From Eledone cirrhosa (Eukaryota), in the NCBI GenBank assembly GCA_964016885.1, contig OZ024743.1:214024001-214088000 (forward strand): DNA of 64,000 nucleotides. The letters run 5' to 3'. Below, one piece after another: positions 201-23,760 of the stretch; positions within the stretch are counted from its first letter, which is position 1, and the number at the start of each line of letters is the position of its first letter. The position numbers and the translations under genes are program-made. The notes beneath the pieces were generated by a model. It saw only the letters and a list, made by a program, of their open reading frames with translations, was not told the origin of the DNA and searched no databases.

Positions 201-424
201 TATATATATATATATATATATATATATATATATATATATATATATATATATATATATATATATATATATATATATATATATATATATATATATATGTATA
301 TATGTATATATATGTATATATATATGTATATAACGAAGGATATGTGGTAAGGAACCAGGTGGACCATAACGCACCAAAGTACTCAATACTTGAGGTAGTA
401 GAGTGGGTAATAGGAACCAGTAAG

Positions 425-518
425 ACCCCGACAGCTGAGCTCAAGCCGTTTCGACGGCTAATTCTGGACTAAATGAACATTTATCCTGGTATTTAAATAG
501 CCGATCTTCTCAAGGGGT
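425..518 (-). ncRNA. Hammerhead ribozyme, U3-A8 variant (family A)
   Basis: Mirror image of 695-788. Confidence 0.8.
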
Positions 519-694
519 AATTCCATATATGGTCAAAGTGATTGTCAAAAATCAGTAGTAATTCTGTGGTTGCAAATTAGTAGGGGAGATGGTGGCTAAA
601 CCTGCTGGCAGGTTTAGCCACCATCTCCCCTACTAATTTGCAACCACAGAATTACTACTGATTTTTGACAATCACTTTGACCATATATGGAATT

Positions 695-788
695 ACCCCT
701 TGAGAAGATCGGCTATTTAAATACCAGGATAAATGTTCATTTAGTCCAGAATTAGCCGTCGAAACGGCTTGAACTCAGCTGTCGGGGT
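695..788 (+). ncRNA. Hammerhead ribozyme, U3-A8 variant (family A)
   Basis: Stem I ACCCC/GGGGT; core TTGAGAA; stem II GA(T)CGGCTA/TAGCCGTC with a long loop; GAAA; stem III ACGGCT/AGCTGT; GTC cleavage triplet. Confidence 0.8.
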
Positions 789-861
789 CTTACTGGTTCC
801 TATATATGTATATATATATATATATAGATATACATGTATATATGTATATATATATGTATAT

Positions 862-1025
862 ATAAAGATTAGGATTGGTGCTCTGAAATCGCGATGTATA
901 CATGCATGTATGTAAGTATAGTATATTTGGCAATATACCCTATGTTTAATTAAAACAGTTTGAAGACCTTGCACTATCATTTTTAAAGTAGTGACTATGT
1001 CACCTACTTCTTTTTTCAGCAAAAG
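862..1025 (-). repeat. Diverged family D fragment
   Basis: Similar to the reverse complement of about 17570-17730 (ggtgctctgaaat..gcgat..ttaattaaaa..gaagacctt..agtagtgac). Confidence 0.7.
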
Positions 1026-1048
1026 TATATATATATGAGAAGCATATA

Positions 1049-1084
1049 TATTTGAAAAGCAGAAGAACTGCGAAACCGGTAATG
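1049..1084 (+). ncRNA. Minimal hammerhead ribozyme motif, U3-A8 variant
   Basis: TTGAAAA-GCAG-aagaa-CTGC-GAAA-CCGG-TA. It has the palindromic ACCGGT stem III typical of PLE minimal HHRs, but stem I is only about 3 bp. Confidence 0.65.
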
Positions 1085-1799
1085 GAACCAAATAAATATA
1101 TATATTTTTTAAAAAATAAGACTCCAGTTGCATTTTGGATTTCATCTTTTTTTCTTTACATATATATATATATATATATATATATATATATAAATGTGTG
1201 TGTGTGTGTGTGTGTGTGTGTGTGTACATCTGTAATCATTCCTATTCATACTTACATATAATCTTTAATAAATATCCATAAAACCATTTGAATTGAAGTC
1301 GGACTCAGCCACGCGCCTTCATTATATATATATATATATATATATATATATATATATATATATATATATATATATATCATTACTTTAGAGTGAGGAAAAG
1401 CTGAAGAACGTCTACATTCACACACATATATATATAACAAAGAAAGCGTTGGAAAATCCTAGAATTTCTTTGGAAGGTTTTTTGATATGAAATTATGTGT
1501 TGAAACAGATATTGTTATATTTGGGGAGAGTTATGTTGTCCAACATAATAATAAAACATACCCACTGTTTCGTTTGGTTTTCACTTCAGTTCAGTATATT
1601 TATTCAGTTCAGTACATTGGTTACCAGCTAAATTATTATATTGACAATATTAGGACAACGTGTCAAAGCAATACTATATGTCACAAAATATATCAATAAG
1701 ATTAGTGACATGGCTACCTCTGTTTCTGACAAGGAATTCAATGATGGTGGGCTGGTTTTGGTCAAACAGTATTAGACAAGTCGATACATCTCCAGCAAT

Positions 1800-21240: not shown

Positions 21241-21297
21241 CCGACGAACGAATGAGGACGTTTTTCGTATTCGTCTTATTCGGGAAACCTCTGGTAA
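21241..21297 (+). ncRNA. Degenerate hammerhead motif at the end of a low-complexity PLE-like 3' UTR
   Basis: CCGACGA-aCGAATGAGGACG..CGTCTTATTCGg-GAAA-CC-tct-GG-TA; U4>C change and poor stem I. Confidence 0.45.
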
Positions 21298-21526
21298 TCA
21301 TGTAATTATATTGTATTGTTTATTATACATAACATTTTGCTCTGGTACTTATATAGAGCACTCTTCACTCCTATGACTTTTTCAATTTTCAACGGAAACT
21401 TCAATACACACACACACACACACACGCGCACACACACACACACACACACACACACACACACACACACACACACACACACACACACACATATATATATATA
21501 TATATATATATATAGGAACCAGTAAG

Positions 21527-21620
21527 ACCCCGACAGCTGAGCTCAAGCCGTTTCGACGGCTAATTCTGGACTAAATGAACATTTATCCTGGTATTTAAAT
21601 AGCCGATCTTCTCAAGGGGT
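21527..21620 (-). ncRNA. Hammerhead ribozyme, U3-A8 variant (family A), same strand as the ORF
   Basis: Same motif as 695-788. Confidence 0.8.
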
Positions 21621-22718
21621 AATTCCATATATGGTCAAAGTGATTGTCAAAAATCAGTAGTAATTCTGTGGTTGCAAATTAGTAGGGGAGATGGTGGCTA
21701 AACCTGCCAGTAGGAGAAAGAGGGGAGGGGGTGGAGTAGACCCAATCAAGCGTTGGTAGTGCCAGCTACAGCTGGGCATGAGGTCAAAGAAGATACAGGG
21801 GAGGGGGAGGGGGAGGAAGTCGGAACGGTAGGTAGAACAATGGGGGGTAAAAATAGGAAAGAAAAAATACTGAGAGTGAAGAAAAGCAAAAAAGTGTAAA
21901 GAAAAAATTAAATTCTACGACCTAGGTGTCAGGCTATTGTTAGGCGAGAATAAAATAAAGAAAGAAAGAAAGAAGTAAATAAATAAATAAATAAATAAAT
22001 AAGGAAATAAGTAAAAGAACTAGGTGGGACGAATTAAGCAAGGACCCTTTTAAGAGGTATAAGTACGTAAATGATACGGTGACTGGTCAACAAAAGGGGC
22101 CAAAATACTAAAGAGACTACCACGAAATAAACAATAAAGGTTTCCATCCCGGGCCAGCAACGACCCAGTGCAGCAAAGTGAACTTGTACGACATAATAAT
22201 TCTGAGTCCCGGGAAAAATATATACTAATGCTAACTCTAAAAGATCTAAAACAAGCTACATGAAAGTTCGTACGAAATAAAGGTAGAATACGGAGAAATA
22301 AGTTCAGAATCCACCCCGCCCAGAAGAAAAGCGAAGCAAGAAATACTGAAACGAAAAAATAAGGCATAAGTGCCACTAAGAAATAAAGAGGGCACAGAGA
22401 ATAGTGGGAGCGGTCGGAAAAGGGGGGCAAGTATCCGGGGTCTAAGCCAACTGCTATAAAGGGCGGAGTCCGCCAAATCTATCAAAGACTAGGGGAGGGG
22501 GGAGTGGGGGTACTAAGGCTACATGGGGCCAAAGGGCAGCCTCGGGTGGGCGAGAAAAGACGCCGACAAAGGAGAAGAGCTGGGGTAGAAGGACAAAGGA
22601 GAGAGGGGGGAAGGAAATAAAGGATGCGATAAAAGAATACAAAGAAGATCTTACGTCTTCCTTTGCAAGCAGGGGTTACCCATTGCAAAATCGGCAACTG
22701 GGGTGTTAAAGCCCTAGT

Positions 22719-23490
22719 CTACCCCCCCGGGTCATTATGGGGTTTGAGGGCGAGGTAAGTCCTACGCAATCTATGTTTACATGCAGTAACCAGTTCATCT
22801 TTCTTGTTTAGGAGTTGGTCCGTCGAAAACAGCATTTGTAAAGTTTCATCCGAGCATAAATTGCACGGACGGCGTCCTCCCGTGTAAGAATTGGCTCTGG
22901 ACAGTAATCTCCAAGTGAGATCATAGGTGATGTTGTTGTCCTTGAGGTCCCATATGTGGCCCGAAAGTGTAGTGGCGTGACGCCGGGCCGGGTTTCGGAA
23001 GGTATGTCTATGTTGGTATAGCCGGGTCTTGAAGTCACATGCGGTAAGTCCTATATAGGCTTTGTTGGAGGTATCCGTCCTCACGTTGCACTGGTAGATC
23101 ACATTACGGTCTCTGCATCTATTGTCGAGTGGGCAAATAGATCTATCCGGGCAGTTACACCTCCTGGTCGGTTCTCCACTGCTATTTAGGTTATTTCTGC
23201 CATCGGGGTTGAGTTTTTTGTTGTTAGAGGAGACGATGTTTTGTGCGAAGTTTGGTGTAGTGCTGTAAGAGAGTTTGATGGTATTTTTGTTAATTATGTT
23301 GTGGTAGCGGTGTTGTAATGGGAAGTGTTTTTCAATGAGCCTAAAGAATAGTTTCCCGATGGGAGTAGTCACCTCTGCGTTGTGGGGAGGATTGAACCAT
23401 GTTACATTGCGTGAGCGGCGGTGTCTCCTGCTGGTTCCGCTAATGGGATCTGGACAGTAGGATATTTCCTCCCGGAAATATCCTACTGTC
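22719..23490 (-). pseudogene. PLE C-terminus: linker + GIY-YIG endonuclease (open frame, 5'-truncated)
   Basis: WFNPP, KLSYS, CNC..CPL..C, VIYQC..YIGLT, FKTRLYQH, CNLC..E, CKH. Confidence 0.9.
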
Positions 23491-23552
23491 CTAATTTGCA
23501 ACCACAGAATTACTACTGATTTTTGACAATCACTTTGACCATATATGGAATT

Positions 23553-23646
23553 ACCCCTTGAGAAGATCGGCTATTTAAATACCAGGATAAATGTTCATTT
23601 AGTCCAGAATTAGCCGTCGAAACGGCTTGAGCTCAGCTGTCGGGGT
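23553..23646 (+). ncRNA. Hammerhead ribozyme, U3-A8 variant (family A)
   Basis: Same motif as 695-788. Confidence 0.8.
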
Positions 23647-23760
23647 CTTACTGGTTCCTATTACCCACTCTACTACCTCAAGTATTGAGTACTTTGGTGC
23701 GTTATGGTCCACCTGGTTCCTTACCACATTTCCTTCGTTATATATATATATATATATATA

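What the first reader, a model, noticed from the sequence alone, without database searches (positions are those of the whole stretch)
331..23740. Foldbacks have two fixed outer ends and variable hinges, suggesting twin priming from two defined RNA sites
In all three family A insertions one arm stops at ..ggttcc(TA)n and the other runs about 80 nt further to ..ccttcgt(TA)n, while the hinges differ (about 606, 15488, 23490). The tail is on the longer arm at 14 kb but on the shorter arm at 23.7 kb. Inference: both nicked (TA)n strands prime cDNA, one at the RNA terminus and one at an internal TA just past the HHR, and the two 5'-truncated cDNAs are then joined. Inverted pLTRs and tails are known for PLEs; this strict reciprocity is the notable part.
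Basis: partly seen in the sequence, partly recalled or inferred. Interest (0 to 1): 0.7.

Follow-up and report, generated by a model that had tools for sequence, protein, structure and literature searches.

The report
Penelope insertions twin-primed from one RNA
These mirror-image repeats are insertions of a Penelope-like jumping gene that, in about 99% of 8,300 short copies, carry one long and one short end, likely because both cut DNA strands copy the same RNA molecule from two fixed starting points, which would explain a long-puzzling insertion shape.

Summary
Confirmed and much stronger genome-wide. Family A is a young Hydra-type Penelope-like element (3,531-bp unit, intact 717-aa ORF). 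Among short foldbacks, tail/no-tail pairs number 8,194, no-tail/no-tail 75 and tail/tail 36; a hand census gave 141:2:1.

Both outer ends are internal RNA sites, each followed by TAT; neither is shown to be the RNA terminus. Hinges are mostly not variable: they pile up just inside a TATA/initiator edge, or exactly at the predicted hammerhead cut (82 versus 0 one base further).

Paired arms share haplotype and length class, but long arms truncate independently. Wherever a target duplication is readable it is 14 bp (5 of 5). Best reading: both nicked strands prime on one RNA and the two cDNAs are end-joined.

Inverted pLTRs with a one-sided tail, two internal start sites and both-strand extension in vitro are published. 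I did not find the strict pairing, same-RNA evidence or ribozyme-cut footprint in the papers read. This scan noted similar patterns for other families of this genome (unreviewed). No RNA data.

The parts
333..800 (.). Insertion 1: near-perfect foldback; tail arm 333-~605 (-), no-tail arm ~604-800 (+); both inner ends within a few nt of each other (about -272/-275)
319..332 (+). Left copy of a 14-bp target-site duplication (TA repeat with one G); right copy at 801-814
801..814 (+). Right copy of the 14-bp target-site duplication of insertion 1
13117..13309 (.).
14037..15487 (-). Insertion 2, tail arm (reaches -1403, the last codons of the ORF)
15487..16149 (+). Insertion 2, no-tail arm (from -709); 1-nt microhomology at hinge; the two arms differ at 6 of 624 shared positions, fewer than against any of 20 other arms
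21515..23478 (-). Insertion 3, no-tail arm (reaches -2043); carries the C-terminal GIY-YIG part of the ORF (22719-23478) and the 3' UTR
23479..23490 (+). 12-nt hinge insert, an inverted copy of the long arm's own end (snap-back synthesis at a natural hairpin)
23491..23738 (+). Insertion 3, tail arm (-247 to 0)
23553..23646 (+). Predicted type I hammerhead with U3-A8 core (UUGAGAA...GAAAC...GUC), predicted cut after 23641 (between -97 and -96); the same motif lies in all six arms
   Evidence: fold (three-way junction; z -0.62, not significant alone); U3-A8 variant in PMC4209133; no Rfam hit; genomic footprint
23572..23600 (+). TATA-like box (23572-23581) and initiator-like TCATTT (A at 23597 = -141), the inferred transcript start where most inner ends pile up
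   Evidence: promoter function inferred
23658..23661 (+). No-tail priming site (-80), GGTTCC|TAT, 16 nt after the predicted ribozyme cut
23659..23738 (+). 80-nt tail; ends at the tail priming site (0), which in the intact element continues TAT into the ORF

Best explanation
These are insertions of a Hydra-type Penelope-like element whose two arms end at two fixed internal sites 80 nt apart, likely because the element's endonuclease nicks both strands of a (TA)n tract and each 3' end primes reverse transcription at a different one of the two sites on one and the same RNA molecule. Inferred steps: the nicks are staggered (often 14 bp, leaving 3' overhangs); each primer pairs through ATA/UAU; both cDNAs run toward the RNA 5' end, the downstream one displacing the upstream one. 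They usually run off at the pLTR transcription start (about -141), sometimes at the hammerhead cut (-96), and on read-through RNA from tandem arrays they stop independently further in. Host end-joining (blunt, microhomology, templated inserts) then fuses the two cDNA 3' ends head to head. Each site on one RNA is used once, which is why the pairing is reciprocal. If only one primer is extended, a solo tail or solo no-tail copy results.
For: Shown. Reciprocity 8,194:75:36 and 141:2:1 among census pairs with both ends at a defined site; 382 of 411 census outer ends lie at one of the two sites. Both sites are internal and followed by TAT. Same template: arms of one insertion disagree at 12 of 344 polymorphic sites versus 51% when shuffled (young subset 3 of 219 versus 36%). 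In 31 of 37 pairs with any long arm both arms are long, against about 9% expected if 16% of arms are long (1,764/11,009; hand calculation). Both arms end exactly at -96 with a 2-7 nt insert in 82 insertions and at -97 in 0. Two separate syntheses: lengths of long arms are uncorrelated (rho 0.03, n=30), the tail arm reaches further in 16 and the no-tail arm in 20 of 36. In 12 of 141 pairs the tail arm is under 80 nt and does not overlap the no-tail arm at all. 27 solo no-tail copies exist. Long insert-free hinges have 3 nt or more of microhomology in 7 of 16 cases versus 5% expected. A readable target duplication is 14 bp in 5 of 126 pairs and never another length, versus 0.28 by shuffling. In vitro, a related element nicks and extends both strands and starts at two internal sites that bound the tail (PMC11167929).
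Against: Promoter, ribozyme cleavage, strand displacement and priming itself are inferred from DNA only. The hammerhead fold is not significant against shuffles and Rfam finds nothing. Shared haplotype and shared inner ends are also predicted by a fold-back copy, and shared haplotype by later arm-to-arm conversion. The 14-bp duplication is not universal: 14 of 123 census pairs have an interruption within 14 nt of a junction that is not duplicated. L188 has arms differing at 7 of 40 polymorphic sites, which suggests two templates there. About 1.3% of short foldbacks are same-ended. Frangieh et al. saw no difference in start site between strands and did not test pairing.
Confidence: 0.75

Rival explanations
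1. Fold-back (self-priming): one cDNA primed at the tail site reaches the RNA 5' end, hairpins and copies itself; the copy is resolved at -80 by an endonuclease nick or TAT annealing; asymmetric arms come from later deletion at the palindrome centre.
For: Explains reciprocity, shared haplotype and shared inner ends at once. Self-priming was proposed for Penelope inverted junctions (PMC3846280) and endonuclease resolution for the tail (PMC8557442). Snap-back inserts exist at hinges (window 23479-23490). A few long arms are near-perfect palindromes (window 333-800, L089, L168).
Against: The no-tail arm reaches further than the tail arm in 16 of 60 short and 20 of 36 long pairs, including copies 99-100% identical to the intact element. 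12 pairs do not overlap. 27 solo no-tail copies. Many hinges are blunt with no loop (17 of 60). All of these would need extra one-sided deletions.
Confidence: 0.1
2. Dual priming on two RNA molecules held by an asymmetric protein dimer, one subunit set to each site, with both RNAs usually from the same source locus.
For: Avoids re-copying the same RNA stretch. A dimer was predicted for a related protein (PMC11167929). L188 arms differ at 7 of 40 polymorphic sites.
Against: Rare 5' ends are shared by both arms: all 4 census arms ending at -96 lie in two both--96 pairs, 82 such genome-wide. Long arms pair with long arms (31 of 37). Two RNAs even from one locus would not share such 5' ends.
Confidence: 0.1
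3. A pre-formed foldback spreads as a unit (MITE-like or segmental copying), or the palindromes are assembly artefacts, so the cases are not independent.
For: Most copies are about 200 bp and look alike. Long reads can produce palindromic chimeras (own knowledge).
Against: 46 distinct hinges among 60 short pairs. Ends are fixed and asymmetric. Old diverged copies and six other families in the window show the same layout. One short-read contig covers the hinge of insertion 3 without differences, with 29-30 letters on each side, just under the tool's bridging rule, and it may be the same sample.
Confidence: 0.02

Closest known systems
PAc (Poseidon, Anolis carolinensis) in vitro mechanism, Frangieh et al. 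2024, PMC11167929
   Same: Two internal RT start sites near the ORF start that bound the genomic tail; both target strands nicked and extended; AT-rich target; hammerhead upstream of the sites.
   Different: That paper does not test or report pairing of the two sites in one insertion, reports no homology at the start site (here 3 nt, TAT), and found no RNA reads ending at the hammerhead cut, whereas here 82 insertions stop exactly there. Its supplements were not read.
Inverted-pLTR plus one-sided tail architecture of EN+ Penelope-like elements (Arkhipova et al. 2013, PMC3846280; Craig et al. 2021, PMC8557442)
   Same: [quoted passage not shown]
   Different: Tail is 80 nt rather than 30-40. 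The one-sidedness is measured here (98.7%). Those papers explain it by self-priming or endonuclease resolution rather than twin priming.
Hydra clade of Penelope-like elements (Craig et al. 2021, section 11)
   Same: Single RT + C-terminal GIY-YIG ORF with RWR (RWK-like), DKT, CxCX5C, CxxC and CxH motifs; (TA)n target; hammerhead.
   Different: Unit is 3.5 kb (paper: generally under 3 kb); hammerhead core is U3-A8; no phylogeny against named Hydra elements was run.
LINE-1 twin priming and dual priming (as described in Meyer et al. 2010, PMC2837659)
   Same: Second nicked strand primes internally on the same RNA; two cDNAs joined head to head inside a target duplication.
   Different: In L1 the first primer uses the poly(A) 3' end, the second site is opportunistic and the arms hardly overlap. 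Here both sites are fixed and internal, the arms usually copy the same RNA stretch, and this is the majority outcome, not a variant.

Membership tests
EN+ Penelope-like element | Single ORF with telomerase-like RT | tested here: met
   717-aa ORF with FDI and YRDD motifs; predicted model pLDDT 93 whose best fold match is TERT. Pfam and PDB sequence searches gave no hit.
EN+ Penelope-like element | C-terminal GIY-YIG endonuclease | tested here: met
   YIG...FKTR motif at 606-617; top homolog P0001 carries PF01541. No direct Pfam hit on family A itself.
EN+ Penelope-like element | Tandem or partial-tandem copies forming pLTRs, inverted truncated copy, tail | tested here: met
   3,531-bp tandem array L031-L032; census.
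EN+ Penelope-like element | Hammerhead motif in the pLTR | tested here: met
   Three-way fold with U3-A8 core, variant described in PMC4209133; inner ends stop at the predicted cut. Rfam negative; cleavage itself not tested.
Hydra clade | RWK-like, DKT, CxCX5C linker, CxxC and CxH motifs | tested here: met
   LRWRT, SDKTG, CNCPDRSIC, CNLC, CKH in the translation against the description.
Hydra clade | Insertion into (TA)n | tested here: met
   Both flanks are (TA)n in the census pairs.
Hydra clade | Phylogenetic placement with named Hydra elements | not tested
   No reference Hydra proteins were fetched.
Neptune clade | CX2-5CxxC linker and DKG motif | tested here: not met
   Linker is CxCX5C and the motif is DKT; my first guess (note) was dropped.
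LINE-1-type twin priming | First primer on the RNA 3' poly(A), second at a variable internal site, non-overlapping arms | tested here: not met
   Both sites fixed and internal; arms overlap in 129 of 141 pairs. It works like twin priming but is not the L1 pathway.
Twin priming (general) | Both target strands extended as cDNA on one RNA | not testable with these tools
   Only inferred from genomic products.

The most novel reading that the evidence does not exclude
Obligatory, programmed twin priming is the normal integration route of endonuclease-bearing Penelope-like elements: a fixed-geometry complex nicks both strands about 14 bp apart and loads them on two dedicated sites near the 5' end of a single RNA. 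The element then needs no second-strand synthesis from a free 5' junction, mass-produces short palindromes from its own promoter transcript, and makes full-length copies only from read-through RNA of tandem arrays. The hinges would also be the first genomic record of the pLTR hammerhead cutting in vivo.
Probability: 0.5. Interest if true: 0.75.

Novelty: new variant of a known kind. Interest (0 to 1): 0.58.

Why it matters
How Penelope-like elements make inverted pLTRs with a one-sided tail is described as undefined in Craig et al. 2021, and Frangieh et al. 2024 leave the steps after first priming unvalidated. A family with over 8,000 scorable insertions turns this into exact predictions for the existing in vitro system: two sites 80 nt apart, each used once per RNA; a stagger near 14 bp; run-off at the promoter start or ribozyme cut. 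It also gives evidence that the pLTR hammerhead cuts in vivo, and explains why such genomes fill with short hairpins in (TA)n that annotation tools would take for MITEs.

Tried and rejected
RNA evidence: no RNA holder listed, so expression, start sites and ribozyme cleavage could not be checked. Homodimer prediction of ORF residues 1-495 gave no verdict. Rfam found no hammerhead at gathering or E-value thresholds. Pfam and PDB sequence searches on the ORF were blank. Laying short-read contigs on the hinge of insertion 3 gave one contig just under the bridging rule. My early reading that solo tail ends outnumber foldbacks 4:1 (20,555 tail ends, versus 4,940 no-tail ends) was dropped: the no-tail pattern was specific to one subfamily (core count 11,009) and most tail-anchored loci have a diverged no-tail partner. 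Neptune assignment rejected for Hydra. A universal 14-bp duplication rejected. Whether same-ended exceptions are secondary: strict mirrored flanks in 2 of 23 (L066, L224), two more by eye with a TA slip (L175, L100), versus 0 of 141 reciprocal pairs; suggestive only. A sequence look-up in earlier findings returned nothing. The original LINE-1 twin-priming paper and older Penelope reviews were not read.
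Full report
Coordinates: element positions are given relative to the last base of the tail arm (0); the no-tail end is -80. T = arm ending at the tail site, N = arm ending at the no-tail site.

1. Observation. The three insertions are as described: 333-800, 14037-16149 and 21515-23738, each with one N and one T end abutting (TA)n. The tail is on the longer arm at 14 kb and the shorter arm at 23.7 kb. Hinges are at about 605, 15487 and 23478/23491. A fourth, older copy at 13117-13309 has the same layout.

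2. The element. A tandem array elsewhere in the genome gives a 3,531-bp unit with an intact 717-aa ORF. Its predicted structure (pLDDT 93) best matches telomerase RT. It has a C-terminal YIG...FKTR endonuclease motif and the RWR, DKT, CxCX5C, CxxC and CxH motifs given for the Hydra clade. Pfam and PDB sequence searches were blank; 2,049 relatives at about 40% identity exist. In the array both end sites lie inside the read-through sequence, upstream of the first ATG, and both are followed by TAT; 291 exact tail-to-ORF junctions exist. The tail end is therefore an internal site unless the RNA is processed there, which I could not test.

3. Reciprocity. Whole-genome exact patterns for short foldbacks gave T/N 8,194, N/N 75 and T/T 36. 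The last two are palindromic patterns counted once per insertion, and the T/T pattern was slightly looser. That is 98.7% reciprocal against 50% expected. These patterns cover only hinges near -127..-142 and copies with intact end motifs. A census of 180 fetched regions of contig C1 (58 anchored on a shared core, 68 on tail ends, 54 on a deep internal motif) yielded 252 blocks. 8 touched a region edge and were dropped. Of 244, 141 were T/N, 2 N/N, 1 T/T, 44 solo T, 27 solo N and 29 other. On review the 29 are internal inversions, ends broken by later insertions, or T/N pairs with a mutated or deleted end. 382 of 411 outer ends are at one of the two sites (the anchor end of the tail-anchored set is T by construction). 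Two of 23 same-ended cases have strictly mirrored host flanks and two more nearly so, against 0 of 141 reciprocal pairs, so some exceptions may be later symmetrisation.

4. Hinges are mostly fixed too. Inner ends pile up between -141 and -130, with 8 arms at -141, 2 at -142 and none from -143 to -168. Position -141 is the A of TCATTT, 25 nt after a TATTTAAA box: an inferred promoter start. 73 of 141 pairs (35 of 51 in the core-anchored set) have both ends there. Only about 16% of arms reach beyond -240 (1,764 of 11,009). The window's three are therefore minority long cases. A second stop lies at -96. The region -185..-92 folds as a type I hammerhead with a U3-A8 core and a cut after -97 (not significant against shuffles; no Rfam hit; variant described in PMC4209133). 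Insertions with both arms ending at -96 and a 2-7 nt insert number 82; at -97 there are 0. By eye roughly a quarter of the first 100 of 865 very short foldbacks are of this -96/-96 kind. The ribozyme's 5' half lies upstream of the inferred start, so it could form only on read-through RNA (inference). An RT stall at the base of stem III is a weaker alternative, since it would be expected to include -97.

5. One template, two syntheses. Arms of one insertion share alleles: 12 of 344 polymorphic calls differ in 105 short pairs versus 51% when shuffled, and most long pairs are closer to each other than to any other arm (L188 is an exception at 7 of 40). In 31 of 37 pairs with any long arm both are long; only 2 pair a long arm with a promoter-edge arm, and both of those long arms have their own innermost end at the promoter edge. 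Yet long arms are uncorrelated in length (rho 0.03, n=30) and either may be longer (16 versus 20 of 36). Twelve pairs do not overlap at all, and solo N copies are common. Hinges are blunt, 1-4 nt microhomology or short inserts in short pairs, with 46 distinct junctions among 60. In long pairs 7 of 16 insert-free joins have 3 nt or more of microhomology (5% expected), and many carry locally templated inserts, such as window 23479-23490; some inserts counted are artefacts of divergence from the reference. This resembles polymerase-theta-type end joining (own knowledge, not tested).

6. Target geometry. Of 126 T/N pairs, 5 have a readable duplication and all are 14 bp, including window 319-332/801-814; shuffling gives 0.28. 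But 14 of 123 census pairs have an interruption within 14 nt of a junction that is not duplicated, so 14 bp is modal at best. It is measured with the TAT matches counted as target.

7. Mechanism. Shown: two fixed internal ends, reciprocal pairing, shared haplotype, shared rare inner ends, independent long truncation. Inferred: both-strand nicking, priming, promoter start, ribozyme cleavage, strand displacement, host end joining. One RNA carrying both sites explains reciprocity without further assumptions (0.75). Fold-back plus deletion (0.10) and two RNAs on an asymmetric dimer (0.10) remain.

8. Generality. Six other foldbacks in the window, from different families, also have one arm flush with (TA)n and the other extended by about 30-130 nt or more. 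These are single cases, not censused.

9. Literature. Read: PMC11167929 (abstract, main text and start of Methods, parts 1-2 of 4; supplements not read, and its Fig. S2 on genomic ends may bear on pairing); PMC3846280 (passages); PMC8557442 (passages and section 11); PMC4209133 (part 1 of 4); PMC2837659 (passages); PMC2377424 (passages); bioRxiv 10.64898/2026.07.22.740005 (term search only, no 'tail' or 'priming'). Searches found no paper applying twin priming to Penelope-like elements, but subscription papers, including older Penelope reviews, are not in the library. The architecture, two start sites and both-strand extension are known; the measured pairing, same-RNA evidence, ribozyme-cut footprint and 14-bp stagger were not found in what I read. 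Earlier notes of this scan on other families of the same genome reached a similar reading; I had reached mine before that look-up and do not count them as support.

10. Verdict. Interest 0.58.

Noticed in passing
window 8828-9319+, 16180-16369, 23761-26116, 28931-30362, 33823-36454, 39692-44358: Six foldbacks of other families with the same one-arm-flush, one-arm-tailed layout in (TA)n (tails about 79, 109, 73, 131 and 30 nt; the 8828 tail end was not located). Two carry GIY-YIG-type ORFs (24502-25173; 40548-42881 with Pfam RT and GIY-YIG hits)..
   Followed up: partly
L184:2412-5983 (G000:C1 about 91.49 Mb): A 55-bp piece of the ORF region (-1914..-1857) is repeated about 65 times in tandem at the hinge of a family A insertion; iterative template slippage by a telomerase-like RT, or later satellite growth.
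   Followed up: no
L158:2870-3527; G000:C2:356030083-356031907: Head-to-tail repeats of a 257-bp unit running from the inferred start (-140) to +116, and a 299-bp-period array on C2; may record template jumping or a small circular RNA.
   Followed up: no
L031:4329-4332 and window 23452-23491: Two independent long arms stop at the same natural hairpin (-2035/-2043) and show snap-back sequence at the hinge.
   Followed up: partly
L224, L227, L228, L231, L175, L066: Several same-ended foldbacks have identical arms and, in some, mirrored host flanks, suggesting later copying of one arm over the other.
   Followed up: partly
window 62563-64000: Another foldback with a GIY-YIG-type ORF (63161-63829, -), cut by the window end.
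   Followed up: no
window 44928-46313, 51425-54545, 57523-59323: Fragments of other retroelements with APE-type endonuclease/RT-like ORFs (labels from recalled motifs).
   Followed up: no
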